A stretch of 64,000 bases of DNA from an uncultured Verrucomicrobiota bacterium. GTDB lineage: Bacteria; Verrucomicrobiota; Verrucomicrobiia; Methylacidiphilales; UBA1321. The notes beneath the pieces are model-generated. The model ran no database searches. It was not told where the DNA came from and saw nothing but the letters and a program-made list of their open reading frames with translations. The translations under genes were made by a program, and so were the position numbers. The stretch lies in the NCBI GenBank assembly GCA_903863295.1, contig CAIPBM010000028.1, positions 45,050-109,049 on the forward strand, in the 5' to 3' direction. This document shows, piece by piece, positions 3,151 to 42,987 of this stretch. Position 1 is the stretch's first letter. The number at the start of each line of letters is the position of its first letter.

Positions 3151-3200
3151 AGCCCGATAACTGAGAATTCCAACCCCAGACTTGATTGATCCTGACCCCC

Positions 3201-4859: not shown

Positions 4860-4869
4860 GGGCAGGGGG

Positions 4870-5661
4870 CTATTTCATCAGCGGATCGAGAACGGGTTGC
4901 AGGTTATCCGCCCAGATTTGGTAGCCTTGCAAGGAGGGGTGGAGAAGATCGGGAAATAGTTCCTTGGGAAGTTCGCCATTGGCGTCGAGGAATTTTGCAC
5001 CGATATCCAGATAGTGGACTTGCGGGCCAAAGTCGGTCTTACTCAGGATGGCATTGGTGGCTTCCACTGTCGTGCGCCGGAAGTCACCTTTTTTTCCGCA
5101 GGGAAAAATCGCCATCAGCACAATTTGGGATTGGGGTAATTTTTCGTGGACAGTAGCCACGATCTTCTGGACACCGGCGGCGACCCACTCCGGCTTATCC
5201 CGGAACTTCCCAATATTATTCGTGCCGATCAGGATGACGACGGCCTTGGGGTGGAGCCCATCAAGGATTCCACCGGCCAGATGACCCAGCGTCTGCCCCG
5301 TGGTTTCGCCGGAGATGCCCATGTCTCCGGCATCGTAGGGGGCATAATACTTGGTCCAGACGGGAAGTCCCGCGCGCTGCCAGAAGGCCGTGATGGAATC
5401 GCCCAGGAAAATCAATTGCATGTTTTTGTCCTCGGCCCGCTTGAGCAGTTTCATCTGTCCTCCCAGGCCGGCGACCGGGGCGGGAGTGACTGCATCTTCC
5501 GGTTGACGTGGCGCCGCCGGAGGCTTGGCCGCGACGGGTGCGGTATTGGTGGCCGGTTGAGTTGTAGGAGTCGGGGGACTGATTTCCTGTGCCGTCAATG
5601 GGCGTCCAAGAAAAAGAATGAGGGCAAGGACAAACAGGGGAGAGACTTGGTTTTTGGGCAT
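4870..5661 (-). CDS. SGNH/GDSL hydrolase (lipase/acylesterase)
   Basis: GDSL block IFLGDSITAFW, block III ILIGTNN, block V DLLHPS. The internal Met at 5661 begins a signal peptide MPKNQVSPLFVLALILFLGRPLTAQE. The ORF-track start at 5901 adds 80 non-signal residues and is unlikely to be the true start. Confidence 0.75.
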   Translation of the reverse strand: MPKNQVSPLFVLALILFLGRPLTAQEISPPTPTTQPATNTAPVAAKPPAAPRQPEDAVTPAPVAGLGGQMKLLKRAEDKNMQLIFLGDSITAFWQRAGLPVWTKYYAPYDAGDMGISGETTGQTLGHLAGGILDGLHPKAVVILIGTNNIGKFRDKPEWVAAGVQKIVATVHEKLPQSQIVLMAIFPCGKKGDFRRTTVEATNAILSKTDFGPQVHYLDIGAKFLDANGELPKELFPDLLHPSLQGYQIWADNLQPVLDPLMK

Positions 5662-5839
5662 GGAGGTTTTTATAATGTGTTGAGTTTGCAAACGATCAGG
5701 TGCGGGGACCGAGAGAGCATCAAAAGTCAATGTGCGAAGTATCTGTATCCGATGGCATCCAGCGACGAATACTTGGTAATTTGGGTAGCCGGACGATTCA
5801 TGTATAGAGTGAGAAATGCGGATTTCATTTTCAAGATGC

Positions 5840-7450: not shown

Positions 7451-7473
7451 GCGGATGTTTTGATTTTCCCGGA

Positions 7474-8577
7474 TTAAATCGGATGGTAGGGCGCAACGGC
7501 CACCCCGACATAAGTGTCGGCGCAACCGTAGTAGAGAAACCATTGGTGCTTAAACAGGACGAGTCCCTCAATGAAAGTTGTTCCAGCCGTGTACTGCCCC
7601 GACTTTTCCCACGGCAACTCGGGCTTGATGAAGGGGACGTCGGTGCGGTCGATCAGATGTGAGGGATCGGTGGCGGAAAATAGCGCCTGCCCGCCGGAGT
7701 AAGCCCTGTGGCCAACGCCGATATCGTCCAGGGCCTTGCCATTTTTTCCATTATACATGAGCACGATACCTTTGCTCGTCATCAAGGCGGGGGGACCACA
7801 TTCCGCCAGGTCGGCATCGAACTTTCCCGGGCGTCGATCGAGGAGCACGCCGGAAGCAGGTTCCCAGGTGCGTAGGTCGGGCGAGGAGAGGAGCTGGATG
7901 GCCCCCTCACCAAAATAAAGCCAATAGCGCCCGTTGATTTTCGCTGCGACGAGTCGATCCCCCACGACGCGGCAGACCAGCGACGCCGACTTGCTCGGAT
8001 GGATTTTGCCCGCCACCACGGGCCCGAGCTTGGTCCAGTGGATCAAATCCTTGGAGGTAGCCAATCCCAAGCGGGCCTTCCGCTTACCTGGAAGCCGCAT
8101 CCATTCGGTGTAGAAGAGCGAGTAGGTTCCATCTTCCATTTCCACCACGCGGGGGTCTTCGCAGCCACCCTCCCACTCGTTTCCCTTTTGGTCATCCTCC
8201 GCCGGATACAAAACCGGTTCCGGCATTTTCTTGAAGTTGATCCCGTCCTCGCTCACGGCCAAGCCCAAGCGTGAAGTATAGCCGCCGATCCCGTGCCCCA
8301 GATCGTCCTCGGCGCGGTAAAGCACATAGATTTTGCCGTCCTTGACCACGGCTGCCGGGTTGAAGGTGTGCGCGGCTTCCCAATGGACGGGGATCTTCCT
8401 CATCGGACAGTTGAAGACCGATGCCGGATCGGGTTTGATGATCGGCTTTGCCTCTGGGGGGCGGGTAAAAGGACCTACACACCAGTCGGGTAACCCAGCC
8501 GCTTGATCCCCGGCATCAGACCTGATCGAGATAAAACCGAACAGCGCGATGAGCAGAAGGATCGATCTTTGGCGCAT
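7474..8577 (-). CDS. Glycoside hydrolase family 130-like (beta-mannoside hydrolase/phosphorylase fold), secreted
   Basis: Signal peptide MRQRSILLLIALFGFISIRSDA. Five-bladed beta-propeller blocks HTFNPAAVVKDGKIYVLYRAEDD and SRLGLAVSEDGINFKK resemble GH130 (DUF377). Carrying a signal peptide fits the hydrolytic GH130 subgroup. Confidence 0.6.
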   Translation of the reverse strand: MRQRSILLLIALFGFISIRSDAGDQAAGLPDWCVGPFTRPPEAKPIIKPDPASVFNCPMRKIPVHWEAAHTFNPAAVVKDGKIYVLYRAEDDLGHGIGGYTSRLGLAVSEDGINFKKMPEPVLYPAEDDQKGNEWEGGCEDPRVVEMEDGTYSLFYTEWMRLPGKRKARLGLATSKDLIHWTKLGPVVAGKIHPSKSASLVCRVVGDRLVAAKINGRYWLYFGEGAIQLLSSPDLRTWEPASGVLLDRRPGKFDADLAECGPPALMTSKGIVLMYNGKNGKALDDIGVGHRAYSGGQALFSATDPSHLIDRTDVPFIKPELPWEKSGQYTAGTTFIEGLVLFKHQWFLYYGCADTYVGVAVAPYHPI

Positions 8578-8814
8578 GAAAGCGATTTATCGACTGTTCG
8601 AATAGAATATTCTATGAAAAGTGGATATATTCTAGTTATTATTCATATTTTGCTTGCAAAGCAAGACTTTTTTCGGCACGGTTCATTTGGGCTTAATAGC
8701 TAAAAATGGCATTGACGAGCATGCCTTCATAGATGACTTAGTGTCTATTCTTTAACCCCTATTAGGCACTTTGATACTAGTTTTGTGAGACCTCTCTTAA
8801 AATTCCTGCGTGAC

Positions 8815-11800
8815 ATGCCGGAGATCAAGGTGAAGAGCCAGTGGAACCCATCGCAATCGAGGCGTAGCGGGTCGGCGTTGATTGTTGTTCTGGTCATGGT
8901 CGTTCTCCTGACCATTCTGATGCTGACCTACTTGTTGTCATCCACCGCCGATCGCAAGTTATCCAACAGCAGCCTGAACCAGACGATTGCCGATCAGCTT
9001 GCCCGCAGTGCCACGGACGTCATTATTGGCGACCTCAAGGAAGAGATCATCAACCCCGGGCCGGGCTCGGGCGGCTATAATACGATTACTTCCGTAGGCC
9101 CAACGGGAGCCCAGACCACGATCTCGATTCCGCAACTGCAGAATAACATCTACGGCACGATGATGCCCACCCGCAGTGGTAATCCCGCTCTGGTCGCTGG
9201 CGTCGATCCCATTCCAAATCTGGTGCGGATCAGCAACCGGAATGACCCGGTCGGTAATTCAACCACCAGTACACTGGTGGGAAGCCGCGCCTCTGCCGCC
9301 AGTTCATCGACGGCTTCGTCAAATGGACGCTCGGTCAGCGCCAAGCGCTGGAACGCTCATTTTCTCATCCCGCTCCAAACTCCGGGGAGTACCGCGGTGA
9401 GCGCGACGGCGCCCGATAGCACTCCTGCTGCCTCAGCGAAATTTACCGTGCCGGACTGGGTCTTTGTCACCAGCGACCAAGGGCCAACGGTCATCACCGC
9501 GCCCAGTACCAAAGTTGTCGGACGCTACGCCTACGCGATTTTCGATGAAGGCGGACTCCTGGATGTCAACGTGGCGGGAAGCCCGTCCGCGATGAAGGCG
9601 CTCCAGTTCGATAACAAGAGCACGTTGGCACTCATTGATTTGACGAAGCTACTGGATGCGAGTGGGAACCAGCTCATCCCCACGGCCGCTGCCGATACCC
9701 TGGTCGGCTGGAGAAACTACGCGTCGCTTCAGTCTAATTTTGTCTCAGGCACCGATTCGCTTTCCGGGCAATTTCCGACGGGATTCACGCTCACAGCCCG
9801 CAACAAATCCGATTTTTTCTTTAACTTTGGCCGGGGCAGTTCGACCGCTTATTTGAAAGCCAATAACCTGGCCTCCAGCACCAACCTAACCGATCAGCTT
9901 TTCCTCAGCCGCCAGCAACTCCTTTCCCTCCAGTTTGCCCTCCAGCAAACGGTCGGATTCTCTCCCAGCGCGCTCCAATATTTGACCACCTTCTCCCGGG
10001 GGCTCGATCAGCCCTCCTATACCCCCGATCCCGCTCGTCCCAAGACCCAGAGTTACACCTCAGGCACGGATCCGGCGACGGTTACGCCAAATGGAGCCAA
10101 TACGGCGGCGGGCAATGACGATTACATCAATCCCAGTTACCTGGCCGTCCGGGTCTGGCAGCCTTTGACCGCCGGTCGCAACGACGGAACCGACCTCACC
10201 CTCGGCGAGCCCCTGGTCAAAAAGCGCTTTGCCCTCAACCGTCTCGCATGGCTGACTTACAAGGGGCCTCTTTCGGACGGGTCAAACACCGGAACCGCGA
10301 CGACAAACACGCAGGTCAACGCGGATGCAGACCTGCAATTGATCGCCAAATATCTGCATGACAACTATGGCCTCAGCTACGCTTTCCTTTCCAAGGGAAC
10401 CAAGAACAATATCTACAATTACTTCGGTTTGAGTTGGGTGCCCGACAGCCGTACGACGCCGCTAGGGAATGGTCAGAGTAAATGGTTCTATAATCATTCC
10501 AATTCCAACGCTACCGGTCCCTTTACCGCCTTACCGACAACAGGCTTCGGCGGTCCCATCATGCGCGTGGGACGTCCTGCCGCTGTGACAGCCCAGGATC
10601 CCGCGACCTATGTCGAGGATTTAGGTTATAATGGAACCGGGACGGCGAGGGAGCCTGACTTCTTTGAGCTACTCAAGGCCACCATCGTCGCTGGATCGAA
10701 AGGAAGGAACGCGACGCTGCAAGTTCCCTTTGCCAGTATCGGCGGAAAAGTCATTTTCACCACCCAGCCGAACCCGGACGACTTTCAAAATAAAATGGAC
10801 TCTTCCCTGGAATTTCAAACCATCCAGATTGGGGCCAACATTATTGAGCAATCCCGCCTCGATGGCTATACCGTCCAAATACTTTATAATGATGGTAGTA
10901 TCACGGCGACCAGGGAGTTTTCCGGGACTGAAAATCTACCCTATATCTACGGGATACGCACGGGCATGGTACAAGGAAAGGCCCCGGTAATTACAAATCC
11001 ACCTATTCCAACTGCAGCCCCTCCCTATAACGCCTACACGACAACGCCGTCACCACTCCCCACCATCACGGACACCGGCTACAGCGTCGCGATGCAATTT
11101 CCGATTGTCTGGAATCCCCAGGATCAAAACTGCCTTCGTTGTGCGGTTGATCCTACGACGCAAAAATTTTTAACCGACCATCTAAACAAGCCGCTTTTTC
11201 CCACTAGTTTTCGCATCGTTGCCGATTCAGTCGATCCAGATCACATCAACGCCTCGGGAACAGGCTATAGCACGATCGGATTTCAACTCTATAACCAGTA
11301 TGCGACCAGCAATATTCAAACCTATAATGTTAATGCTACGAATGTGACGAAGTCCTACTTCACCAGCGCTAATGTGCCACTCAACGCCCCATTTACCCAA
11401 GCAAGCCAGCTTAATAATAACCCACCAACCCAGTTTACGCTCACGGCGGAAAGCACGGCGCTTACCTTTACCGTCGATGACAATACTTACCCGAGTGCCC
11501 AGACGTTTTTTAGAGAACCAACCTTCCTGATTTCACCGAACGTTCCGCCTAATTCCTCTCTTAAAGCAGGGGGCTCAACGAATTGCCTGAATCCCTTGGC
11601 TGTGCAAGCAACTTTAAATCCACCAACCAGTGTGTTCCCTAGTTTACAGTCTTCCAGCTATATGGATACGAGCACGGGTGCGCTTAAAACTACCGATAGC
11701 GCCAACGGCAACGCCTACCTTAATCTGAATCCAATTCTCGGTTTTTATTTGGGAACTTATCCGGGAGCCTATTATTGGGATGCCACCTATGCTGGTTTTC

Positions 11801-13515
11801 CTGCCCAAACCTACAAGTATACCCTTTGGACGAGTGGCACCACCAGCTCGGTTAAGGCAAACTTCAAACTCGCAGCGGTTCCTGATTCTTGCGACCCCGT
11901 GAGCACACCGGCGATTACCTACCGGATGCAGTATGAGACGACGCCCGGATCTGGGGTTTGGGTGACCTATGATTCAAAATATGTCTTTACCCTAATGAGC
12001 CCGGATATAGAGCTTACGAATTATAATGATGCGACTTACCCCTCTGGAACGGCCCTGACGACCCGCGGGCATTGTACGGGCTATGATCCCCGAACCAATC
12101 GCTTTAGCATGCCATTTCAAGTGCTCGGCCCCGTCGATGCTCCTCCGGGAATGGCCTTAACTTCCTCCTATAGTCTTAAAGCTGCCCCAACCCAGCCCGG
12201 TACTCCCTGGTCGGCTGCAAATGCGACGACCTTCGGCTGGCTTAACGCCATCTCATCCAGAGGAACCGGTACGACGGTTAGTAATGAAATCATGACGATG
12301 CGTCCGGATATCGCCTTGGGCTATTACATGGGATTTGGATCAACCGGAAATGCAACCTTGGACGCTCAGTTTCCAGAGGCTCAGGGGTGGACTCTGAACA
12401 CGCCTCACACGCCAGACGTGAATTTTCCTGCCACCTCTTATTACGCAACATTTTTTGGACTATTTCAGATTAACAGTTCTCAATACACGCCATCCAAATA
12501 TCCGACTCTGGAGACAGCTCAAAGCGCTGCAAATATACCGGCGGCTATCAACTCAACCTTTCGTCCCACGGGTGCCCAATACTATGCCGATCCCGATGGT
12601 GTGGTGCGCCGGGGCATGGGTGCTTACTTTTCCGATTCAACGGCAACAGTAAGCACGTCCACGACTCCCGGGCTTTATCCCGGTCTCCCAATGGCCACCG
12701 CGAGCAATGTTCAAACCGACGGTTCCAACTACGCCGCTCAGCAGGCGCAGAGCCGTCCCATCATCCTGCATCGCCCTTTCCGGTCCGTAGCAGAACTCGG
12801 CTATGTCTTCTCGGGAACCCCATGGAAAAATCTCGATTTCTTTACTCCGGAAAGCGGGGATGCGCCGCTGCTCGATGTCTTTTGCATCGATGACTCTGAT
12901 AACTCAACTGGGCTGGTGGCGGGTAAAGTAAATCTGAACACCCGCCAGCTTCCGGTGCTCCAAACTGTCTTGTCCGGAGCCTATAAAGATGAAGAGAACT
13001 ATTACTTGGGAAACAATAAACCCGGGACTTCCACCTATGCGTCTTCCTACAGTCCGCTGACCACTCTGACGGGACCGACGAGCAATACCGAAGCTAACTT
13101 GATCGCCAAGGCTCTCATCGCCCGAACTACCGGAACCACCCTTGGCTCGGGTCCGTTAGTCTATATCAGCGATCTGGTTGGCCGCTATACGGCAGGGCAA
13201 AACAATGCCTACGGACAACCCTACGATGGATTCAGTAGCGATCTTAACTCGAGCGTGTTCAAAAATTCCGCCACGGTAAGCTCTCAGATTCAGCGTTTCC
13301 GTGAAGCACCGATCCGGGCGCTCTCCGCCGTCGGCCAGACCCGCGTCTGGAATTTGTTGATTGATGTCGTCGCCCAAAAAGGACGCTTTCCCACCACGGC
13401 GACAACCCTCGATAATTTCAATGTCGAGGGCGAGCAGCGGTACTGGGTTCATGTGGCCATTGATCGTTTTACGGGACAAGTCATCGACAAACAAATTGAG
13501 GTTGTACACGAGTGA
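8815..13515 (+). CDS. Giant GspK/PilX-like minor pseudopilin fused to a roughly 1300-residue Ser/Thr/Asn-rich extracellular region (putative pilus-tip adhesin)
   Basis: N-terminus MPEIKVKSQWNPSQSRRSGSALIVVLVMVVLLTILMLTY resembles the GspK-type non-canonical prepilin helix (G-x-A-L-I-x-V-L, no Glu5). A GspK-like motif VAGKVNLNTRQLPVLQTVL lies near the C-terminus. The long low-complexity middle is rich in T/S/N. The ORF track starts at GTG 8785; the first ATG is at 8815. The stop overlaps the next gene. Confidence 0.55.
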   Translation: MPEIKVKSQWNPSQSRRSGSALIVVLVMVVLLTILMLTYLLSSTADRKLSNSSLNQTIADQLARSATDVIIGDLKEEIINPGPGSGGYNTITSVGPTGAQTTISIPQLQNNIYGTMMPTRSGNPALVAGVDPIPNLVRISNRNDPVGNSTTSTLVGSRASAASSSTASSNGRSVSAKRWNAHFLIPLQTPGSTAVSATAPDSTPAASAKFTVPDWVFVTSDQGPTVITAPSTKVVGRYAYAIFDEGGLLDVNVAGSPSAMKALQFDNKSTLALIDLTKLLDASGNQLIPTAAADTLVGWRNYASLQSNFVSGTDSLSGQFPTGFTLTARNKSDFFFNFGRGSSTAYLKANNLASSTNLTDQLFLSRQQLLSLQFALQQTVGFSPSALQYLTTFSRGLDQPSYTPDPARPKTQSYTSGTDPATVTPNGANTAAGNDDYINPSYLAVRVWQPLTAGRNDGTDLTLGEPLVKKRFALNRLAWLTYKGPLSDGSNTGTATTNTQVNADADLQLIAKYLHDNYGLSYAFLSKGTKNNIYNYFGLSWVPDSRTTPLGNGQSKWFYNHSNSNATGPFTALPTTGFGGPIMRVGRPAAVTAQDPATYVEDLGYNGTGTAREPDFFELLKATIVAGSKGRNATLQVPFASIGGKVIFTTQPNPDDFQNKMDSSLEFQTIQIGANIIEQSRLDGYTVQILYNDGSITATREFSGTENLPYIYGIRTGMVQGKAPVITNPPIPTAAPPYNAYTTTPSPLPTITDTGYSVAMQFPIVWNPQDQNCLRCAVDPTTQKFLTDHLNKPLFPTSFRIVADSVDPDHINASGTGYSTIGFQLYNQYATSNIQTYNVNATNVTKSYFTSANVPLNAPFTQASQLNNNPPTQFTLTAESTALTFTVDDNTYPSAQTFFREPTFLISPNVPPNSSLKAGGSTNCLNPLAVQATLNPPTSVFPSLQSSSYMDTSTGALKTTDSANGNAYLNLNPILGFYLGTYPGAYYWDATYAGFPAQTYKYTLWTSGTTSSVKANFKLAAVPDSCDPVSTPAITYRMQYETTPGSGVWVTYDSKYVFTLMSPDIELTNYNDATYPSGTALTTRGHCTGYDPRTNRFSMPFQVLGPVDAPPGMALTSSYSLKAAPTQPGTPWSAANATTFGWLNAISSRGTGTTVSNEIMTMRPDIALGYYMGFGSTGNATLDAQFPEAQGWTLNTPHTPDVNFPATSYYATFFGLFQINSSQYTPSKYPTLETAQSAANIPAAINSTFRPTGAQYYADPDGVVRRGMGAYFSDSTATVSTSTTPGLYPGLPMATASNVQTDGSNYAAQQAQSRPIILHRPFRSVAELGYVFSGTPWKNLDFFTPESGDAPLLDVFCIDDSDNSTGLVAGKVNLNTRQLPVLQTVLSGAYKDEENYYLGNNKPGTSTYASSYSPLTTLTGPTSNTEANLIAKALIARTTGTTLGSGPLVYISDLVGRYTAGQNNAYGQPYDGFSSDLNSSVFKNSATVSSQIQRFREAPIRALSAVGQTRVWNLLIDVVAQKGRFPTTATTLDNFNVEGEQRYWVHVAIDRFTGQVIDKQIEVVHE

Positions 13516-14252
13516 AGAGCATAAAATCACCCATCATTCTGGCTGGTATGAGTGGGGCCCTTATCTCCGTTCTGGCCTGGGGACAAGACGCGTCCCAACC
13601 TCCCGCGTTACCGCCTGGACCGTTACTGGCCAGGCCGGAGTCCGCCCAATGGCAGGTAACGATGTCACAGGAGAAAACCGCGAATGTGGGAAGTGACAGC
13701 GCGGTGATCAAAGTAAAGTCGGTGGTGGTGCAGGGTAAAATCCGGCATGAAGAATCCAAAGACGCCTCGGGATTTCAATTAACCATCTGGTGCGAGGGAA
13801 AGAACGAGTACTACAAAACCTCAAGCTCGGACCGATTCTTCATTTGCTCGCCTAATCTTGTCTCGATCTATATCGATAATTCCAAGCAGGTCTTTACGGA
13901 ACTCGACTGGCTCCGCCGTGAGAATTTCGTCGGCATCAAAAATATCAATGGCAAGCCCTGCCTGGTCTTTGGTGAAGCATTCCAGGCGCTTCCGGCAGGT
14001 AAAATCGGTGAGCTGCTGGCACCCGAAACCGTGGAGAACAATCATTTCAAAAAGGCTGAACTTCCACGAATTGCCTATATCGATATGGAAACCCGCCTGC
14101 CTCTCTATTATCAAGATGGTGCCGGCAACTATGTATATCAGTTTGGGCCCACACCCGATGCGCCGCTGGTACTTCCGGACGAGATTGTCACGATGTTGAA
14201 AAGGCAGGAAGCGCTGACGAAACAATTGAGCAAGCAGCCCGCACGATCCTGA
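13512..14252 (+). CDS. Hypothetical secreted protein (Sec signal peptide), translationally coupled to the pseudopilin genes
   Basis: GTG start overlaps the upstream TGA stop (GTGA). Signal peptide MKSIKSPIILAGMSGALISVLAWGQDA. No recognisable catalytic motif. Confidence 0.45.
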   Translation: MKSIKSPIILAGMSGALISVLAWGQDASQPPALPPGPLLARPESAQWQVTMSQEKTANVGSDSAVIKVKSVVVQGKIRHEESKDASGFQLTIWCEGKNEYYKTSSSDRFFICSPNLVSIYIDNSKQVFTELDWLRRENFVGIKNINGKPCLVFGEAFQALPAGKIGELLAPETVENNHFKKAELPRIAYIDMETRLPLYYQDGAGNYVYQFGPTPDAPLVLPDEIVTMLKRQEALTKQLSKQPARS

Positions 14253-14265
14253 GCTGTATCGATCC

Positions 14266-15042
14266 ATGAATGAAAACAGCTTAGCCTCAAATCTGAGAGC
14301 CCGGAGTCAAGTCAGGCGGGCTTTCAGCCTGGTTGAGTTGCTCGTGGTCATGGCCATCATCGCGATTCTCGTCGGGTTGAGTGTCGCCTCCATTAAGGGG
14401 CTCCAGGATTCGGGAAATATCACGCAAGCCGCGAACAACATCACCGGTGTCCTCGAAAACGCTCGGGCCTATGCTATGGCCAACAATACCTACGTCTGGG
14501 TGGGATTTTACGAGGAAGCCACCACGTCGGCCGGAGCGAGCGCCCTTCACAATCAAGCTCCCCCCTATAAGGCCCCGGCTGTCGGTCGTCTGGTCATCGG
14601 GGTGGCGGCCGCGCTTGACGGGACCAGCAGCCTTACAACCACCAACCTTACCGCGGTACAGAAATTGACCATCATTCCCAACATCCACTTGACGAATATC
14701 AACACGACCCTGGCACCGGCGGCCAGCAACACCAGTCTGCCCAACAACCTCGCTGGCCGACCGCTGGCCGATAGCTTTCTGGATAGCGAGGATTCAAGCA
14801 CGAGCTCCGAATTGCCCTCCGCCACAGAAAGCTTCCAATTGAATAACTACCAATTTTATAAAGCGATTTGTTTCAATCCACAGGGCGGTGCAGAAATGGA
14901 AACGCCGAACAAAGTGCTGCAACATGCCATTGAAATCGGCTTGGTTCCCACTCATAACGGCGCGGTCAATACCACAACAAAAAACCTCGTCGCACTGCAG
15001 ATAACTGGGGCAGTGGGAAGCGTGAAAATCTACCGGCAATGA
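14266..15042 (+). CDS. Prepilin-type N-terminal cleavage/methylation domain protein, FimT/GspH-like minor (pseudo)pilin
   Basis: Class III signal RRAFSLVELLVVMAIIAILVGL, with Glu at +5 and Ala rather than Gly at -1. The following segment NITGVLENARAYAMANNTYVWVGF resembles the GspH/FimT block. Confidence 0.7.
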   Translation: MNENSLASNLRARSQVRRAFSLVELLVVMAIIAILVGLSVASIKGLQDSGNITQAANNITGVLENARAYAMANNTYVWVGFYEEATTSAGASALHNQAPPYKAPAVGRLVIGVAAALDGTSSLTTTNLTAVQKLTIIPNIHLTNINTTLAPAASNTSLPNNLAGRPLADSFLDSEDSSTSSELPSATESFQLNNYQFYKAICFNPQGGAEMETPNKVLQHAIEIGLVPTHNGAVNTTTKNLVALQITGAVGSVKIYRQ

Positions 15043-16160
15043 AGCTTTCTCCAAACAGGGAAGACGGCTCAAGCCGGTATCGCTACACGAAGACCGCCAT
15101 TCTCCGGCACATGTTCTTGGCTCCAGATGGAATGGTGACGAAACAGCGCACTGCGCGGAGGGGCTTTACCCTGGTGGAACTCCTCGTCTCCATGACCATC
15201 CTCATTGTTCTGGGCGCCGTCATTCTCCAGATCTTGAGCGCCACGACCAAGGCGACGCTCTATAGTTACAAACACATGGATACCGATACCCAGGCCCGCA
15301 CCGTTTTTGATCGCATGGCCATCGATTTCGGGCGCATGGTGATTCGGAAAGATGTTGATTACTATATCAAGCAGGCCGTCGCCTCCTCGGTGCCAACGGG
15401 AGCTACCGGTTACCCCGACCAGTACAAGGCCGTCAATGCTGAACTCGCTACGGCGGGCGTTCCCGGTAATGATCAAATCGCCTTCTATAGTGAGGTGCCC
15501 GGTTACTACCCGGCCACGGGAACGACCAGCGCCCAAAGTCAGCTCTCCCTCGCGGCGTATCGCATCAATGCCGATGCTACCTCTACCCGATATAATACCA
15601 TGGAACGCCTCGGTAAGGGGCTGGTTTGGACTTCGACCAGCAACACGAATATCGCCAACGGTATTGACGTTCCGATTGTTTTTTATCCCACCACGCTGGC
15701 CACCATCTGGCCCCAGGCGGCCAGCGCCACCGCCACAGATTCAAACAATGACTATGAAGCAATCGGGCCGGAAGTCTTCCGCTTTGAGTATTACTATAAT
15801 CTTAAGAAATCGACATCCAGCACGTTGACCAACTTTCTCAGCAATACACCCTGGGATTCGACACTGACCAATCACACATCACTCAATGGCTGGCAGGACG
15901 TGGCCTCCATCACGGTCGTCATCGCGGTGGTGGATTCGAGAACGCGCCCCTTGCTGACTCAAAATCAAATCACGACCTTGGCTGGAAACATGGTCGACTT
16001 CGATTCCACCAACACTCGCACCTGGACGCCGGGACAACTGGAATCCTCCTGGCGTACCGCCATCCAGACCGCCATAACCCAGAATGCGATTTCTGCTCCC
16101 CTGGCGACCCATATTCGTGTTTATAGCCGGACGTTTTACTTGAACACGCCCACGCCTTGA
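15039..16160 (+). CDS. Prepilin-type N-terminal cleavage/methylation domain protein, PilW/GspJ-like minor (pseudo)pilin
   Basis: ATG overlaps the upstream TGA (ATGA). Canonical RRGFTLVELLVSMTILIVLGAV. The following ATTKATLYSYKHMDTDTQARTVFDRMAIDFGRMV resembles the PilW/GspJ helical extension. Confidence 0.7.
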   Translation: MKLSPNREDGSSRYRYTKTAILRHMFLAPDGMVTKQRTARRGFTLVELLVSMTILIVLGAVILQILSATTKATLYSYKHMDTDTQARTVFDRMAIDFGRMVIRKDVDYYIKQAVASSVPTGATGYPDQYKAVNAELATAGVPGNDQIAFYSEVPGYYPATGTTSAQSQLSLAAYRINADATSTRYNTMERLGKGLVWTSTSNTNIANGIDVPIVFYPTTLATIWPQAASATATDSNNDYEAIGPEVFRFEYYYNLKKSTSSTLTNFLSNTPWDSTLTNHTSLNGWQDVASITVVIAVVDSRTRPLLTQNQITTLAGNMVDFDSTNTRTWTPGQLESSWRTAIQTAITQNAISAPLATHIRVYSRTFYLNTPTP

Positions 16161-18424
16161 TCTATCTCATGCGTTCCCCAATGGAAAAAATCGATGTCGA
16201 TGGTTCGCCTTATAAATTCATCCGGCGAACTTGGAGTGTCGTGGCGGCGATCAGCCTGGCCTTGATCTCAACGGCACCGGCTCTGGATATCCCACCCATC
16301 AATTCCGATTTTCTCTCCCGTCACGATTTGCTTTGGGATCAGATGCCGCCCGACTGGGCTTCGGGCGCATTTCAGGGAAATGGATTGTTAGGCGCGATGA
16401 TTTCGCAGCAACCGAATTCCAATAACCTTCGCTGGCACATCGGACGAACCGATGTCTATTTTACCGCCAAGCCGGGCAATCAGTACCGTGTGCCAATCGG
16501 TGATTTGGTTTGGCCGTTGAATCAGCCTCCCGTCTCCTTTTCCATGCGCCTTGACCTGTGGAACGCGGAGGTTGTGGGGACGCTCAAGCCGGATGCCGGG
16601 ACGGAACTAAAATGGAATTCCTTTACCGCCAGCGGAATGCCGGTCCAGGTCATCCGAATCACGAGTGTCGCGGGCAACTTGCCACAAATGGAATGGCATC
16701 CTGCCCCAGCCGTAAACGCCCGCGCCATCATTCGCAAAGAGGTGATCCCGCCGGAGGAGATCAATCCAAGTCCAGTGATCTCGAAGGATGGCGACATCTC
16801 CTACTCGCTCCAATCGCTGCGCGACGGCAATGAGTATGTGACCGCATGGACCCAGGTGGCCTCTCAAGACAGTGAGACCTATTATTTAACGGTCGCCTTT
16901 GCGCCCGCAGGAAAGGCCAAGGCCCAGGCCACGGAGACGATTCATCAGGCCTTGAAAACCGGCTATGATGCGATCTTGGAAAAGCATCAAGCCTGGTGGC
17001 ACTTTTACTGGAATCAAAATTGGATTTCCTTAACCGATACCCGCCTCGAAAGTTACTATGAAATCCAGCTCTATAAGCTGGCCTCCGCCACGCGTGAAGA
17101 CACCACCCCGATCGATCTGATGGGCCCTTGGTACCGGGAAAGTCCCTGGTTGAAGACCTGGTGGAACTTAAACATCCAGCTCACCTACTGGCCCATCTAT
17201 GCAGGTAATCATCTGGAACTCGGGGATCCCCTGCTGCGCATGCTCGATCAGCACCACGATGCCTTCGCCGCGAATGCAAAACCCTACGAGCAGGACTCCA
17301 TGACCATCGGCAGAACGAGCGGTCCAGATGCCCTCTCGCCGGGCGGTCGGGAGCTTTGTAATTTCCCGTGGATTCTTCACAATTACTGGCTGCAATATCG
17401 CTACAGCATGGATGAAGCGATGTTGCGCGACCGGCTTTATCCCTTATTGAAAGGTGCGACCAATTACTACATGCATTTTCTTAAGATGGGGCCGGATGGA
17501 AAACTCCATCTCATCTCGGGACTTTCACCTGAGTATCATAAAGACGCCAATCACCCCGATTGTAATATAGATCTCGCGCTGCTGCGTTGGCTTTGCCAGA
17601 CACTCATCGAAACGGCGACCAAATTCAATCTGGACCCGGAGATGATCCCCAAGTGGAAGGAGACGCTGGAAAATCTCGCTCCCTATCCGGTCAACGAAAA
17701 AGGCCTCATGGTTTCCGCGGATACCTCCTTCGATCTATCCCACCGCCATTATTCGCACCTGCTCATGATCTATCCGCTTGGTCTCATGAATTGGGAGAAC
17801 CCGCAAGACCGGCCCTTGATGGAAAAATCATTTGAGAATTGGACGAGCATGACCGAGGGATTCCGCGGCTTCTCGTTTACCGGGGCCGCAGCCATTCTCG
17901 CGCGCATGGGCAAGGCCGATGAAGCCGAGCAATGGCTGCAAAAGTGGGTCAACGATGGCAAGATACCCTACCCGATGTCGCCGACCACCATGTACGCGGA
18001 AGCGGGACCCGTCATCGAGACGCCGCTTTCGGGTGCGGAGGCCTTGCAGGAATTTTTGCTCCAAAGCTGGGGCGATAAAATCCGGGTCTTTCCTGCCATT
18101 CCCAAGGATTGGCCCGACGTCGCTTTCTACCACATGAGGGCCGAAGGAGCTTTTCTCATCAGTGCCTGTCGGGTCCATGGCAAGACGCGGACGATCCAGG
18201 TCGAAAGTTTGGCCGGAGCGCCCTGCCGAATTGAGACCGACCTGCTCGATCCCCAAACCGATCACCCGGTTCACCTGAAAAAGATCGGGCCCAACCTGTA
18301 TGAGCTTTCTTTGAAAAAAGGCGAATCCGTTACCCTATTCGCCGGAACGGATTCGACGCCTCATCCCATTGCGCCTGTCCGTCCCAACCCCAAACTCGTG
18401 AACAGTTTCGGGCTTAAAGGGTAA
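16157..18424 (+). CDS. GH95-like six-hairpin glycoside hydrolase (putative alpha-L-fucosidase family), secreted
   Basis: Start overlaps the upstream stop by 4 nt. N-terminal block LLWDQMPPDWASGAFQGNGLLGAMISQ matches the GH95 N-terminal signature LW..P..W.EALP.GNG.LGAMV. Signal-like hydrophobic segment VVAAISLALISTAPA. Total 755 aa. Confidence 0.5.
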   Translation: MIYLMRSPMEKIDVDGSPYKFIRRTWSVVAAISLALISTAPALDIPPINSDFLSRHDLLWDQMPPDWASGAFQGNGLLGAMISQQPNSNNLRWHIGRTDVYFTAKPGNQYRVPIGDLVWPLNQPPVSFSMRLDLWNAEVVGTLKPDAGTELKWNSFTASGMPVQVIRITSVAGNLPQMEWHPAPAVNARAIIRKEVIPPEEINPSPVISKDGDISYSLQSLRDGNEYVTAWTQVASQDSETYYLTVAFAPAGKAKAQATETIHQALKTGYDAILEKHQAWWHFYWNQNWISLTDTRLESYYEIQLYKLASATREDTTPIDLMGPWYRESPWLKTWWNLNIQLTYWPIYAGNHLELGDPLLRMLDQHHDAFAANAKPYEQDSMTIGRTSGPDALSPGGRELCNFPWILHNYWLQYRYSMDEAMLRDRLYPLLKGATNYYMHFLKMGPDGKLHLISGLSPEYHKDANHPDCNIDLALLRWLCQTLIETATKFNLDPEMIPKWKETLENLAPYPVNEKGLMVSADTSFDLSHRHYSHLLMIYPLGLMNWENPQDRPLMEKSFENWTSMTEGFRGFSFTGAAAILARMGKADEAEQWLQKWVNDGKIPYPMSPTTMYAEAGPVIETPLSGAEALQEFLLQSWGDKIRVFPAIPKDWPDVAFYHMRAEGAFLISACRVHGKTRTIQVESLAGAPCRIETDLLDPQTDHPVHLKKIGPNLYELSLKKGESVTLFAGTDSTPHPIAPVRPNPKLVNSFGLKG

Positions 18425-18522: not shown

Positions 18523-19593
18523 ATGTCGATTATTGAAGTGGCGAAAAAGGCAGGAGTTTCCTACGCAACGGCCTGGCGGGTGATCAACGGTAAATACAAC
18601 TTGTCCAGTGAAACAGCCGCCGCTGTCGAGCGTGCGATGACTGAGCTCAGCTTTTCCGTCGAAAATCGACGTCGCTTACGGCGCAACGTCGGCAAGGACA
18701 AGGCCGTCGAAACGGTCGCCCTGCTCCATTTCCGTCCGGTAACCACCCTCGGTAATTCCATCCTTTATCTCGTGCAAAAATGCCTGGCGGCCGAGGGGAT
18801 TAACCTGGTCTTTGCCCATGTGCAAAATGAAAATGAGATTCCGCCCGCCGTCAGGAAAGGGGAGGTCCACGGCATCCTCGGCTACGGGGAAATGCCGGAA
18901 GCGTGGATCACCGAGAGTTTAAAGAAAACCCCCGCCGTCTGGATGATGAGCACCTCCTCCCCGCATCCCGATGTCTGGGGGGACCGCGTCTCGCCGGATA
19001 ATTATGGGATCGGCACCCTGGCCGGAAAATACCTCATGGATCGCGGCCACCGGCACGTGGCCATGATGGGAACGAACGACAATTTCAGCTCTTACGGCCT
19101 CTCGCAGAGATGGTACGGCTTCCAGGCCGCCGCCTTCGGAAAATCCGATTCGGTTCACTCCATTTCCGCGCTCCAGGATAGTGAAGCCTCCTCCCAGGTC
19201 ATGCGCTCCTTAAGGCAAAAGGGGACGCCAGGAATTGAGCTCGGTAGTGCCCAACTCGCGGGAACGGCGGAAAAGTTGGTCGACCAGTGGCTGGCCCTGA
19301 AACCACGCCCCACAGGCATATTCATCTCGGTGGATCGCCTGCTCGTCGCCGTTTACGAGGTCTTGTACAACCGGGGCATCAAGATTGATCGCAATTTCGA
19401 TGTCGTCTCCTGCGACTATGAGCAGAACCTCGGGCAACATTTGCGTCCCAAGCCCGGTTGGATCGACCTGAACCGCGGGCAGATCGCCCAGTGGGCGGTC
19501 GAGCGTTTGATCTGGCAGATGAATAGCGGCAAGGTCTCATCGAATATGCTCATCTCCGTCTTCCCGTCGCTCCATTTGCCGACGGAGTCTTAG
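18523..19593 (+). CDS. LacI-family transcriptional regulator
   Basis: N-terminal HTH MSIIEVAKKAGVSYATAWRVINGKYNLSSETAAAVERAM, followed by a periplasmic-binding-protein-like sugar-binding fold. Confidence 0.85.
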   Translation: MSIIEVAKKAGVSYATAWRVINGKYNLSSETAAAVERAMTELSFSVENRRRLRRNVGKDKAVETVALLHFRPVTTLGNSILYLVQKCLAAEGINLVFAHVQNENEIPPAVRKGEVHGILGYGEMPEAWITESLKKTPAVWMMSTSSPHPDVWGDRVSPDNYGIGTLAGKYLMDRGHRHVAMMGTNDNFSSYGLSQRWYGFQAAAFGKSDSVHSISALQDSEASSQVMRSLRQKGTPGIELGSAQLAGTAEKLVDQWLALKPRPTGIFISVDRLLVAVYEVLYNRGIKIDRNFDVVSCDYEQNLGQHLRPKPGWIDLNRGQIAQWAVERLIWQMNSGKVSSNMLISVFPSLHLPTES

Positions 19594-19623: not shown

Positions 19624-19648
19624 CGCTCCCAAGTTGCACTTGGGAGCG
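19624..19648. repeat. Perfect 25-bp palindrome CGCTCCCAAGTTGCACTTGGGAGCG, copy 1 of a dispersed intergenic palindrome family, 31 nt downstream of the lacI-family gene
   Basis: The sequence is self-complementary. The flanks, CCTCG on the left and CTTCCTGTTCC on the right, are shared with the copies at 57574 and 61872. Confidence 0.75.
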
Positions 19649-35210: not shown

Positions 35211-35306
35211 AGGGTCAGGACTCAGGCGATTAAAGGAACGACTGGGGCTTTTCTCAAGATATTCAGTATCCAGCCCTCGAAACAGGGAGAGATAATCCGG
35301 AATAGA

Positions 35307-35351
35307 TTCACATTAAATTGTGAATAGTGCAATTTATTCTTGTTCTATTCA
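35307..35351. promoter_or_regulatory. Candidate operator: 18-bp perfect palindrome TTCACATTAAATTGTGAA, overlapping a second inverted repeat TGAATAG-N17-CTATTCA, in the divergent promoter region between the MFS transporter and the fucose-permease-family gene
   Basis: The palindromes are visible directly. The region is AT-rich and sits between divergently transcribed transporter genes. Confidence 0.45.
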
Positions 35352-42468: not shown

Positions 42469-42987
42469 ATGCCCACGTCTCCGTTCACCCTGAAGATTTC
42501 CCGCCGCAGTCGGGCAGGCTTCTCGCTCACGGAAGTCGCGGTGGCCTTGGCCATCGCCTCATTTTGCCTTACCTCCATCGTGGGTATGATTCCCGTCGGT
42601 TTGCTGGCCAACCAAGCCGCCAGCGGCCAAACCGTCACCAACGGCATCGTCTCTTCCGTCGTTGCAGATTTGCGTGGGGCACCCCTCCCGACCACCGCCA
42701 CGCCCACGCCGACATCCCTCCAGTATTCGATACCCATTCCGGCCAATTCAAAGACATCCACGTCCAGCCTCTTCTTTGCCACGGACGGCTCCTTCAGCTC
42801 GACCCAGCAAAAGAACTCCGTCTATATGGTAGTCGTTAGTTTCTTGAACAACGGCGCCACCGCCACGACGGATAAAACCAGCACCTTTGCCAACATCAGC
42901 ATCAACTGGCCCATTCCTCCTGCGGCCACGACGGCCTCCAAGTGCGCCAATAGCTACCAGACTTTCATCGCGCTCGATCGAAGCTGA
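42469..42987 (+). CDS. Prepilin-type N-terminal cleavage/methylation domain protein (172 aa pilin/pseudopilin)
   Basis: RSRAGFSLTEVAVALAIASFCLTSIVGMIPV carries the canonical G|FSLTE class III signal with Glu5. Thr/Ser-rich globular part. Not adjacent to the other pilin genes. Confidence 0.65.
   Translation: MPTSPFTLKISRRSRAGFSLTEVAVALAIASFCLTSIVGMIPVGLLANQAASGQTVTNGIVSSVVADLRGAPLPTTATPTPTSLQYSIPIPANSKTSTSSLFFATDGSFSSTQQKNSVYMVVVSFLNNGATATTDKTSTFANISINWPIPPAATTASKCANSYQTFIALDRS

What the first reader, a model, noticed from the sequence alone, without database searches (positions are those of the whole stretch)
8785..18424. Five co-directional, overlap-linked genes combine a minor-(pseudo)pilin set with a GH95-like glycosidase and lack all core pilus/T2SS machinery
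The genes run in the order: giant GspK/PilX-like protein, secreted 246-aa protein, FimT/GspH-like prepilin, PilW/GspJ-like prepilin, GH95-like hydrolase. They are chained by overlapping stop/start codons: GTGA at 13512, ATGA at 15039, and a 4-nt overlap at 16157. This makes them a single operon. Minor pilin sets (H/I/J/K or FimU/PilV/W/X) normally sit with a major pilin and near an ATPase, platform and secretin, and none of those is in this 64-kb window. Coupling such a set to a secreted glycoside hydrolase, with a LacI regulator just downstream, suggests a pseudopilus-tip-like module dedicated to glycan capture or enzyme export. The gene order and the absence of a GspI/PilV-like small pilin are atypical.
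Basis: partly seen in the sequence, partly recalled or inferred. Interest (0 to 1): 0.85.

Follow-up and report, generated by a model that had tools for sequence, protein, structure and literature searches.

The report
Glycan-locus pseudopilus-tip gene cassette, rearranged
A soil or freshwater Verrucomicrobiota bacterium carries, inside a sugar-degrading gene cluster, a rearranged copy of a widespread but unstudied cassette that encodes the tip proteins of a pilus-like filament (including a giant cap protein), here co-transcribed with a fucosidase-like enzyme and its regulator.

Summary
The five genes exist as described, and no pilus/T2SS core gene lies in the 64 kb. Only the A/E overlap is secure. 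The D/C overlap depends on an uncertain start, and the GH95 overlap is a TTG artefact (true ATG 16169 or 16181).

The block is a permuted member of a large, multi-copy Verrucomicrobiota family, a sister of TIGRFAM's "Verru_Chthon cassette". Its usual order is D (GspH-like), B (GspI/PilV-like), C (GspJ-like), giant A (GspK-like), E.
- E has a LolA-type fold.
- The "missing" small pilin is at 42469-42987.
- Sequence support for D and C stops at the N-terminal helix.

Family copies sit in different carbohydrate-utilisation loci (pectin-, alginate-, mannan-type). A few lie beside T2SS/T4P ATPase or platform genes.

The order A-E-D-C-GH95-LacI recurs on four diverged contigs, one lacking E.

Best reading: a locus-specific tip set for a shared type IV filament machine, serving glycan capture or enzyme export. 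Function is inferred, not shown. I rate it a new variant of a known kind, of moderate to high interest.

The parts
8602..8615 (.). Perfect 14-nt palindrome ATAGAATATTCTAT in the divergent intergenic region between GH130 and gene A. Candidate operator, untested.
   Evidence: Read. Unique in the window at up to 2 mismatches, with 0.07 expected by chance.
8785..13515 (+). Gene A: a giant (1576 aa) GspK/PilX-like modular pseudopilin. It has a GspK-type N-terminal helix (RRSG|SALIVVLVMVV, no Glu5), a conserved GRYAYAIFDEGGLLDVNVAG strand, a variable beta-sandwich-rich middle and a strongly conserved C-terminal domain (aa 1320-1576). An in-frame ATG at 8815 is an alternative start.
13512..14252 (+). 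Gene E: a 246-aa Sec-signal protein with a LolA/LolB/RseB-type open beta-barrel fold. It is translationally coupled to A (GTGA overlap).
14266..15042 (+). Gene D: a 258-aa prepilin (RRA|FSLVELLVVMAIIAIL), GspH/FimU-like, similar to Verru_Chthon protein D.
   Evidence: PF07963 at 28.6 bits. TIGR02596 at 50.4 bits (cutoff 70) and GspH at 35 bits (cutoff 80), both N-terminal only. Of 42 family members, 42 hit TIGR02596 and 40 hit GspH. The PDB profile search matches only pilin N-terminal helices.
15039..16160 (+). Gene C: a 373-aa prepilin (ARRG|FTLVELLVSM), GspJ/PilW-like, similar to Verru_Chthon protein C. The true start may be ATG 15111 or 15132.
   Evidence: PF07963 at 28.1 bits. TIGR02599 at 39.6 bits (cutoff 256.5), N-terminal only. 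Of 42 family members, 41 hit TIGR02599 and 20 hit GspJ. The PDB profile search matches the helix only.
16181..18424 (+). GH95-like glycoside hydrolase with a signal peptide (747 aa, or 751 aa from ATG 16169). The TTG at 16157 is unlikely to be the start.
   Evidence: PF22124 at 124 bits and PF21307 at 32.8 bits. GH95 structures 2rdy, 7kmq, 8zbv, 4ufc and 2eab match at E 1e-23 to 5e-11. The equivalents of Asn421, Asn423 (NLN) and Glu566 (SPE) are kept, while the Asp766 'IDGN' motif reads 'IETP'. Public gene calls are 747 or 751 aa.
18523..19593 (+). LacI-family regulator, probably the last gene of the transcription unit.
   Evidence: PF00356 and PF13377. 80% identical in L001 and L002 at the same position.
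19624..19648 (+). Hairpin with an 11-bp stem (7 G-C pairs) just after LacI. It is the only strong terminator-like structure in an intergenic position downstream of 8785.
42469..42987 (+). Gene B: a displaced 172-aa small prepilin (RAG|FSLTEVAVALAI), GspI/PilV-like, similar to Verru_Chthon protein B. It is probably the fourth pilin of the set.
   Evidence: TIGR02598 at 35 bits (cutoff 51.4) and TIGR02532. 68% identical to a 162-aa gene 5 kb upstream of A in L002, and 33-41% identical to the in-cassette B genes. A 165-aa gene sits at the equivalent place in the P0001 locus.
7474..8577 (-). Divergently transcribed GH130 (similar to the BT3780 beta-1,2-mannosidase). Part of the surrounding CAZyme locus.
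   Evidence: PF04041 at 118 bits. NF058598 at 443 bits (cutoff 550). GH130 genes lie upstream of A in L001, L002 and the P0001 locus.

Best explanation
The operon encodes a locus-specific tip (priming) complex for a type IV filament, either a T2SS pseudopilus or a type IV pilus. The motor, platform, secretin, peptidase and major subunit of that filament are encoded elsewhere in the genome.

Proposed roles:
- D (GspH/FimU-like), C (GspJ/PilW-like) and the displaced B (GspI/PilV-like, 42469-42987) would form the base.
- A would cap the filament. Its GspK-like pilin/alpha-domain core is interrupted by roughly 1000 residues of beta-sandwich modules that would project from the tip.
- E, a periplasmic LolA-fold protein translated in step with A, would act as A's chaperone or adaptor.

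The set is transcribed together with a Sec-exported GH95-like hydrolase and a LacI repressor, inside a mannan/complex-glycan CAZyme cluster. The cell would therefore fit its shared machine with this tip only when the cognate glycan is present. I favour substrate capture or adhesion at the cell surface as the purpose, with outer-membrane export of the locus's enzymes as the alternative.

Shown: gene content, family membership, the folds of A's family and of E, synteny, multi-copy distribution in different CAZyme loci, and adjacency of some copies to T2SSE/T2SSF genes.
Inferred: assembly into a filament, tip position, glycan binding, regulation by LacI, and the role of E.
For: - Class III signal peptides in D, C and B, and a GspK-type N-terminus without Glu5 in A.
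- Relatives have the order D-B-C-A, which mirrors GspH-I-J-K and FimU-PilV-W-X. Each gene's best NCBIfam hits include the matching pseudopilin type.
- Family loci L067 and L072 adjoin a T2SSE ATPase (464 bits). L021, L022 and L028 adjoin a T2SSF gene, and L051 carries one about 7 kb downstream of A.
- There are at least 7 copies in one complete 5.6-Mb genome and 5 in another MAG.
- Different copies lie in different substrate loci: pectin/rhamnogalacturonan (L089), alginate lyases (L088), GH29/GH2/GH3 (L003), GH116/GH3 (L005) and rhamnogalacturonan-lyase-like (L087).
- The commonest immediate neighbours are MFS sugar transporters, LacI/AraC regulators, PATR proteins and GHs.
- A-(E)-D-C-GH95-LacI-GH92 is conserved at 50-63% protein identity on four contigs.
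- Gene spacing is tight, and the only strong hairpin follows LacI.
- The ends of A are better conserved than its middle, both family-wide and among 7 paralogues of one genome (53% and 47% versus 37%).
- Precedents: modular, tip-located adhesive pilins (PMC8179133); pili genes needed for mucin uptake in Akkermansia (PMC12418764, PMC13174399); a PulG-like pseudopilin inside a verrucomicrobial alginate locus whose genes were induced on alginate (PMC13274419).
Against: - No core machinery or major pilin lies in the window, and the rest of this genome was not available.
- All GspH/I/J/K and Verru_Chthon HMM scores are below the curated cutoffs and confined to the N-terminal helix.
- Profile searches of D, C and A against PDB sequences give nothing beyond that helix.
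- Foldseek found nothing significant.
- No carbohydrate-binding module was recognised in A. The beta-sandwich hits (C2, Ig-like and GH2 accessory domains) are generic.
- E is missing in L002.
- Only about 14 of 50 long loci hit my CAZyme seed set, so the link to glycan loci is frequent but not universal.
Confidence: 0.55

Rival explanations
1. Cargo-specific secretion adaptor. The cassette re-tunes a single T2SS so that its pseudopilus tip recognises and pushes out the enzymes of this locus (the GH95-like protein and its neighbours). A's large insert would be a cargo-docking platform, not a glycan binder.
For: - GspK/XcpX (T2SS) are the closest folds.
- The GH95-like enzyme has a Sec signal peptide and is co-transcribed, 8-20 nt after C.
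- In L086, A-E is followed by another GH95-clan enzyme (DUF5703) and a GH78.
- T2SS has been proposed to export alginases in a verrucomicrobium and is up-regulated on fucoidan in a planctomycete (PMC13274419, PMC11685898).
Against: - Most family copies have no enzyme inside the operon.
- A tip carrying about 1000 extra residues is hard to reconcile with a piston working inside the secretin.
- No cargo-recognition data exist.
- Many neighbours are transporters and regulators rather than secreted enzymes.
Confidence: 0.25
2. Not a filament at all. The prepilin-type N-termini serve only as inner-membrane anchors or processing signals, and A-E-D-C form a periplasmic or envelope scaffold for glycan processing or uptake.
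For: - Sequence support for pilin identity stops at the N-terminal helix in D and C.
- PVC bacteria carry very large expansions of prepilin-like proteins, for example 67 PulG-like paralogues in one genome (PMC13274419).
- A periplasmic protein complex is required for mucin uptake in Akkermansia (PMC12418764).
- E is a periplasmic LolA-fold protein.
Against: - The H-I-J-K-like order, the size ranks and the type-specific N-terminal signatures fit a filament set.
- A's family has a GspK-like fold.
- Some copies adjoin the assembly ATPase or platform genes.
Confidence: 0.12
3. The pairing with GH95 is incidental. An ordinary cassette copy was shuffled next to a hydrolase and regulator by rearrangement within a CAZyme-rich region, and the pilins and the enzyme share no function.
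For: - The cassette is clearly rearranged here, with B displaced and GH92 moved 17 kb from LacI relative to L001 and L002.
- GH95 adjacency is confined to one small clade.
Against: - The arrangement has been kept through divergence to 50-63% protein identity on four contigs.
- Spacing is operon-like.
- A distant clade independently has a GH95-clan enzyme after A-E.
- Family copies are generally embedded in CAZyme loci.
Confidence: 0.08

Closest known systems
T2SS minor pseudopilin tip complex GspH-GspI-GspJ-GspK (XcpU-V-W-X), and its type IV pilus counterpart FimU-PilV-PilW-PilX
   Same: - Four prepilin-type proteins with the same size ranks. In the wider family they also have the same gene order.
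- I/V-type 'FSLxEV' and H/J-type 'FTLVELL' N-termini.
- Some copies lie next to T2SSE or T2SSF genes.
   Different: - The K-like protein is 4-5 times larger (1300-1600 aa against about 300).
- There is an extra conserved LolA-fold partner.
- All curated HMM cutoffs are missed.
- There are many dispersed copies per genome, away from the core genes.
- In this window the order is K-like, E, H-like, J-like, with the I-like gene 26 kb away and a glycoside hydrolase and regulator inside the operon.
'Verru_Chthon cassette' proteins A-D (TIGR02600, TIGR02598, TIGR02599, TIGR02596): an annotation-level family with no published function
   Same: - The best NCBIfam hit for D, C and B, and for relatives of A.
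- The same architecture: three prepilin-type proteins plus a protein of about 1300 aa.
- The same phylum and a multi-copy habit.
   Different: - Scores are far below cutoffs and cover only the N-terminal 60-80 residues (50 against 70, 40 against 256, 35 against 51 bits). Relatives of A score 25-36 bits against a cutoff of 332, and the window's A does not hit TIGR02600 at all.
- This makes it a sister family, not a member.
- A Chthoniobacter flavus protein of this family (P0094) also fails TIGR02600.
Modular, tip-located type IV pilins such as S. sanguinis PilB (vWA module) and PilC (lectin module), and ETEC CofB (Raynaud et al. 2021, PMC8179133)
   Same: A pilin carrier module fused to bulky effector modules and presented at the filament tip. 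That paper cites GspK as a modular pilin.
   Different: - The extra modules are inserted within the GspK-like core rather than appended.
- The protein is almost twice the size of the largest modular pilin listed there (860 aa).
- The modules are not recognised by any domain signature.
Polysaccharide utilisation loci with SusC/SusD pairs in Bacteroidota
   Same: A multi-copy surface-apparatus gene set embedded in substrate-specific CAZyme, regulator and transporter loci. This is an analogy of genomic logic only.
   Different: There is no homology. No TonB-dependent transporter is involved here. The capture or uptake role is untested.
Akkermansia mucin utilisation loci (MUL; pili plus a periplasmic complex needed for mucin uptake)
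   Same: Same phylum. Pilus-type genes are experimentally tied to glycan acquisition (PMC12418764, PMC13174399).
   Different: The genes differ (Amuc_1099-1102: a PilM-like protein and an archaeal-type pilin-like protein). There is no giant GspK-like protein or H/I/J-like set, and I did not establish any homology.

Membership tests
T2SS/T4P minor (pseudo)pilin set (GspH-I-J-K / FimU-PilV-W-X) | Class III signal peptide (G/A at -1, F at +1, E at +5) in the H-, I- and J-type members | tested here: met
   D is RRA|FSLVELL, C is RRG|FTLVELL and B is RAG|FSLTEVA. PF07963 and TIGR02532 score above their cutoffs.
T2SS/T4P minor (pseudo)pilin set (GspH-I-J-K / FimU-PilV-W-X) | K/X-type member: hydrophobic N-terminal helix without Glu5, and a pilin fold with an inserted alpha-domain | tested here: met
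T2SS/T4P minor (pseudo)pilin set (GspH-I-J-K / FimU-PilV-W-X) | Scores above the curated cutoffs of the GspH, GspI, GspJ and GspK (or PilV) models | tested here: not met
   All hits are below cutoff and N-terminal only. No Pfam T2SSK, T2SSJ or GspH domain was found.
T2SS/T4P minor (pseudo)pilin set (GspH-I-J-K / FimU-PilV-W-X) | Globular pilin fold in the H- and J-type members | not tested
PDB profile searches matched only the N-terminal helix.
T2SS/T4P minor (pseudo)pilin set (GspH-I-J-K / FimU-PilV-W-X) | Gene order H-I-J-K and linkage to core genes | tested here: not met
   The window has the order A-E-D-C with B 26 kb away and no core genes. The order is met in most relatives. Adjacency to an ATPase or platform gene occurs in 5 of 78 loci from the genome scan, and a sixth (L051) carries a T2SSF gene about 7 kb from A.
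Verru_Chthon cassette (TIGR02596, TIGR02598, TIGR02599, TIGR02600) | Scores at or above the curated cutoffs of the four TIGRFAM models | tested here: not met
   D scores 50.4 against 70, C 39.6 against 256.5 and B 35.1 against 51.4. The window's A has no hit, and its relatives score 25-36 against 332.
Verru_Chthon cassette (TIGR02596, TIGR02598, TIGR02599, TIGR02600) | Multi-copy cassette of three prepilin-type proteins plus a protein of about 1300 aa, restricted to Verrucomicrobiota | tested here: met
   259 relatives were found among GTDB species genomes. Nearly all titles name Verrucomicrobiota lineages; four MAGs carry other labels. There are at least 7 copies in CP170506.1. The architecture is D-B-C-A(-E). 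This shows likeness of kind, not membership.
Glycoside hydrolase family 95 | GH95 catalytic (alpha/alpha)6 domain and C-terminal domain | tested here: met
   PF22124 scores 124 bits (cutoff 27) and PF21307 32.8 bits (cutoff 27.6). GH95 structures match at E down to 1e-23.
Glycoside hydrolase family 95 | Catalytic residues (AfcA numbering: Asn421, Asn423, Glu566, Asp766) | tested here: inconclusive
   NLN aligns with N421-V-N423, and SPE aligns with the SPE that holds Glu566. The 'QIDGN' motif holding Asp766 reads 'VIETP', so a Glu may or may not substitute.
Glycoside hydrolase family 95 | N-terminal GH95 beta-sandwich domain (Glyco_hyd_65N_2) and alpha-L-fucosidase/galactosidase activity | tested here: not met
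   The N-terminal domain model did not hit. There was only a weak Glucodextran_N hit at 19 bits. Enzyme activity cannot be tested with these tools.
LolA/LolB/RseB superfamily (protein E) | Open antiparallel beta-barrel with helical plug | tested here: met
LacI family regulator | LacI HTH domain plus a periplasmic-binding-protein-like sugar-binding domain | tested here: met
   PF00356 scores 43.6 bits and PF13377 44.2 bits.

The most novel reading that the evidence does not exclude
These cassettes would be the verrucomicrobial counterpart of SusC/SusD. Each polysaccharide-utilisation locus would encode its own interchangeable filament tip, whose giant GspK-like cap binds that locus's glycan. 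One shared retractile type IV filament machine would then reel the polymer to the envelope, with the LolA-fold partner handling the cap. That would be a pilus-based, substrate-specific glycan capture system. The window would show an evolved form in which the tip genes, an enzyme and the repressor have fused into one operon.
Probability: 0.25. Interest if true: 0.85.

Novelty: new variant of a known kind. Interest (0 to 1): 0.62.

Why it matters
Verrucomicrobiota are major degraders of complex polysaccharides in soil, water and the gut. They lack the SusC/SusD apparatus that defines glycan capture in Bacteroidota, and how they seize and import polymers is largely unknown.

This work points to a recurrent, multi-copy gene set for a filament tip, with a giant modular cap. 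It is wired into individual CAZyme, regulator and transporter loci, and here directly into an enzyme/repressor operon. That makes it a concrete, testable candidate for the missing surface apparatus.

It would also extend the 'modular pilin' idea to much larger GspK-type subunits, add a LolA-fold accessory protein to type IV filament biology, and provide a marker for finding polysaccharide-utilisation loci in this phylum.

Tried and rejected
- Sequence searches of A (single protein and a 76-sequence profile) against PDB sequences gave nothing.
- Profile searches of the D and C families against the PDB matched only pilin N-terminal helices.
- Word-indexed homologue searches for E found only 4-9 proteins, even with a 33-sequence profile. 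The E model therefore rests on an 8-sequence alignment.
- A profile job on the representative library failed because the profile exceeded 1200 positions. I replaced it with A's C-terminal domain.
- Literature searches for 'Verru_Chthon' and for Chthoniobacter plus prepilin found no paper.
- No inverted repeat of 10 nt or more was reported in the promoter region. I found the 14-nt palindrome by eye.
- Promoter-like and terminator-like sites are not enriched over shuffled sequence, so operon boundaries rest on spacing and one hairpin.
- Membership in the TIGRFAM Verru_Chthon families was considered and rejected, because the scores miss the cutoffs.
- A phage or mobile origin was considered. Nothing in the window supports it, although relative L086 has an integrase beside its A-E pair.
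- My first GH95 identity comparison used a start one base out of frame and was meaningless. I corrected the coordinates to 16181 afterwards but did not recompute those identities.

Full report
**1. Observation**

The ORF scan finds five co-directional ORFs: 8785-13515 (1576 aa), 13512-14252 (246 aa), 14266-15042 (258 aa), 15039-16160 (373 aa) and 16157-18424 (755 aa). A LacI gene follows at 18523-19593. The claimed junction sequences are present: GTGA at 13512, ATGA at 15039 and TTGA at 16157.

The three overlaps are not equally reliable.
- The A/E overlap recurs in every relative where both genes were called (L001, L003, L005, the P0001 locus, L086, L088).
- The D/C overlap needs a start that leaves a 42-residue leader before the G|F cleavage site. 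In-frame ATGs at 15111 and 15132 give normal leaders, and relative L001 has a 31-nt gap at this junction.
- The C/GH95 overlap comes from the mechanical TTG start. Public gene calls for the identical sequence start at ATG 16181 (747 aa) or 16169 (751 aa), leaving an 8-20 nt gap.

The spacing is still operon-like. The only strong hairpin in an intergenic position downstream of 8785 is at 19624-19648, just after LacI. The likely transcription unit is therefore A-E-D-C-GH95-LacI.

No core pilus or T2SS gene is in the window. I checked Pfam on all ORFs of 200 aa or more, ran PROSITE-type GspD/E/F patterns and scanned the six-frame translation for prepilin motifs.

**2. Identity of each gene**

D and C carry the prepilin N-methylation motif above its cutoff.
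- D's best NCBIfam hits are 'Verru_Chthon cassette protein D' (TIGR02596) and then GspH.
- C's best hit is 'Verru_Chthon cassette protein C' (TIGR02599), and 20 of 42 family members also hit GspJ.
- All of these hits are below the curated cutoffs and cover only the first 60-80 residues.
- Profile searches of both families against PDB sequences match only pilin N-terminal helices.

The giant protein A has no Pfam hit and no sequence match in the PDB. It does have a GspK-type N-terminus (G|SALIVVL, no Glu5; weak NF037980 hits). It has more than 1000 homologues of 1300-1600 aa. Its most conserved parts are the N-terminal helix, a GRYAYAIYDEGGLLDVNVAG strand and the last 260 residues.

The window protein is too long to model. 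I therefore modelled a full-length 1176-aa family member, P0119 (42% identical), with a 51-sequence alignment (pTM 0.78).
- Foldseek found nothing significant.
- Generic C2/Ig-like beta-sandwiches, GH2 accessory domains and a ComEA helix-hairpin-helix followed.

A is therefore best described as a GspK-like modular pseudopilin whose core is interrupted by about 1000 residues of beta-sandwich modules.

The 755-aa protein is GH95-like. Its catalytic and C-terminal domains score above the Pfam cutoffs, and GH95 structures match at E down to 1e-23. The equivalents of Asn421, Asn423 and Glu566 are conserved. The Asp766 'IDGN' motif reads 'IETP', and the usual N-terminal domain was not detected.

**3. 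The wider family**

A scan of one genome per GTDB species found 259 relatives of A. Nearly all record titles name Verrucomicrobiota lineages (Chthoniobacterales/Spartobacteria, Methylacidiphilales, Verrucomicrobiae); four MAGs carry other labels. One complete 5.6-Mb genome holds at least 7 copies and another MAG holds 5. A's C-terminal domain matches 1681 50%-identity clusters at E 1e-3 or better, and 1115 at 1e-30 or better, among 1.84 billion representatives.

I classified the ORFs of 85 fetched loci with phmmer.
- The dominant order is D-B-C-A-E: 28 loci exactly, and about 20 more as variants or truncations.
- B is a 160-180-aa prepilin with a GspI/PilV-type 'FSLVEV' N-terminus.
- This order mirrors GspH-I-J-K and FimU-PilV-W-X, plus the LolA-fold gene.
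- E of the window is homologous to the gene after A in distant loci (27-32% identity, E 1e-22).

The family is not the TIGRFAM Verru_Chthon cassette itself. Even a Chthoniobacter flavus member (P0094) hits TIGR02600 only over residues 1-71, at 25 bits against a cutoff of 332. I treat it as a sister family. I found no paper that mentions the TIGRFAM cassette.

**4. What is special about the window**

The order A-E-D-C-GH95-LacI occurs only in the window's small clade.
- L001 has A-E-D-C-GH95-LacI-GH92.
- The P0001 contig has the same order.
- L002 has A-D-C-GH95-LacI-GH92, without E.
- Protein identities to the window are 50-63% for the cassette proteins and 80% for LacI.

The 'missing' I/V-like pilin exists. 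A 172-aa prepilin at 42469-42987 hits TIGR02598. It is 68% identical to a gene 5 kb upstream of A in L002 and only 33-41% identical to in-cassette B genes. That matches the divergence of the other cassette proteins, so I take it to be the displaced cognate B.

The window's locus looks split. GH92 follows LacI directly in the relatives, but here it lies at 36893-39154, after FtsK and other housekeeping genes.

A more distant relative, L086 (41% identity), has A-E followed by a DUF5703 protein and a GH78. The DUF5703 protein is a remote homologue of the window's GH95-like enzyme (E 4e-7).

**5. Genomic context and the link to a machine**

Family copies sit in different carbohydrate loci.

| Locus | Organism | Neighbouring genes |
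|---|---|---|
| L089 | Verrucomicrobium sp. GAS474 | GH28, GH115, GH43, GH106, RhaT, RhaM, LacI |
| L088 | C. flavus | alginate lyases, CBM proteins, a giant PATR protein |
| L087 | Chthoniobacteraceae MAG (CP170506.1) | rhamnogalacturonan-lyase-like, LacI, SASA |
| L003 | metagenome contig (ENA) | GH29, GH2, GH3 |
| L005 | Chthoniobacteraceae MAG (CP170506.1) | GH116, XylR, MFS, GH3 |
| window clade | metagenome contigs | GH2, GH130, GH92 |

I also ran one Pfam pass over 98 immediate neighbours of canonical cassettes. The commonest families were MFS transporters and PATR proteins (6 each), LacI/AraC-type regulators, GFO/IDH/MocA oxidoreductases, GDSL esterases and various GHs and CBMs. My narrower seed-based count found CAZyme hits in only 14 of 50 long loci. 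The association is therefore frequent but not universal.

Some copies lie beside core genes.
- L067 and L072 have a T2SSE ATPase (464 and 462 bits, with an MshEN domain) divergent from D.
- L021, L022 and L028 have a T2SSF platform gene immediately after A.
- L051 has a T2SSF gene about 7 kb downstream of A.

This ties the family to a type IV filament machine. It also fits a picture of one machine with many alternative tip sets.

**6. Mechanism**

The best-supported reading is a locus-specific tip (priming) complex for a shared type IV filament machine.
- D, B and C would form the base.
- A would be a giant modular cap.
- E would be A's periplasmic partner. It is translationally coupled to A and has a LolA fold, which suits shielding a hydrophobic segment.
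- Expression would be tied to the glycan locus through LacI. A perfect palindrome, ATAGAATATTCTAT at 8602-8615, is a candidate operator.

Two things lead me to favour glycan capture or adhesion. The ends of A, which would be needed for assembly, are better conserved than its middle, both family-wide and among seven paralogues of one genome (53% and 47% versus 37%). A very bulky tip also fits surface display better than a piston inside the secretin. Export of the locus's enzymes remains a serious rival. The in-operon, signal-peptide-bearing GH95-like enzyme supports that rival.

All functional steps are inferred. Published precedents are:
- modular tip pilins (PMC8179133);
- pili genes required for mucin uptake in Akkermansia (PMC12418764, PMC13174399);
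- a PulG-like pseudopilin inside a verrucomicrobial alginate locus whose genes were induced on alginate (PMC13274419);
- T2SS up-regulation on fucoidan in a planctomycete (PMC11685898).

**7. Verdict**

The interpretation points in the right direction but overstates uniqueness. This is a rearranged member of a large family that is annotated in databases but not characterised.

To my knowledge and within the searchable literature, these points are new:
- the GspK-like fold of the giant protein;
- the LolA-fold partner;
- the systematic embedding of the cassette in CAZyme loci;
- the occasional adjacency to ATPase or platform genes;
- the fusion with a GH95-like enzyme and repressor in this clade.

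I rate it a new variant of a known kind, with interest 0.62.

Noticed in passing
window 42469-42987 (+): An orphan 172-aa prepilin of the GspI/PilV / Verru_Chthon-B type. It is 68% identical to a gene 5 kb upstream of the cassette in relative L002, so it is probably the displaced fourth pilin of the operon.
   Followed up: yes
window 20010-23669 (+): A 1219-aa protein with autotransporter-type PATR repeats and a PEP-CTERM sorting signal, directly after LacI. PATR proteins recur beside cassettes of this family (L005, L087, L088; 6 of 98 immediate neighbours). They may be functional partners or cargo.
   Followed up: partly
window 39151-40710 (+) and 40707-42287 (-): Two proteins of about 520 aa with no Pfam hit, between GH92 and the orphan pilin. 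The P0001 contig has unknowns of 521 and 529 aa beside its 165-aa small gene, which suggests a conserved association.
   Followed up: no
window 8602-8615: A perfect 14-nt palindrome, ATAGAATATTCTAT, in the divergent GH130/A promoter region. It is unique in the window (0.07 expected by chance) and may be an operator.
   Followed up: partly
window 448-8577 and 33807-44264: The surrounding CAZyme cluster holds GH2, a SASA esterase, a GDSL esterase, a sulfatase and a BT3780-like GH130. It appears split from a second part (two MFS transporters, GH92, two unknowns, the orphan pilin, another MFS) by FtsK and other housekeeping genes. In relatives, GH92 follows LacI directly.
   Followed up: partly
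L067 4810-6651 (-), L072 3836-5566 (-), L021 3988-5271 (-), L022 7433-8704 (-), L028 2969-4393 (-): In a few genomes a cassette of this family lies directly beside a T2SSE ATPase (with an MshEN domain) or a T2SSF platform gene. L051 also carries a T2SSF gene (21477-22346, -) about 7 kb downstream of A.
   Followed up: yes
L086 3874-5073 and 7344-17333: In a 41%-identical relative, the A-E pair has no D-B-C upstream and sits next to a phage-type integrase. It is followed by a DUF5703 protein (a remote GH95-clan homologue) and a GH78 rhamnosidase.
   Followed up: partly
L002 14611-14688: The closest-clade relative L002 lacks the LolA-fold gene E between A and D. E is therefore dispensable, or encoded elsewhere, in that lineage.
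   Followed up: no
window 30535-31545 (+): A radical-SAM protein with a DUF3463 domain. It overlaps a longer ORF on the opposite strand that has no family hit. Unrelated to the finding.
   Followed up: no
window 62192-63778 (+): A protein combining PEGA domains with a formylglycine-generating-enzyme (sulfatase-modifying) domain. A sulfatase gene lies at 5840-7543.
   Followed up: no
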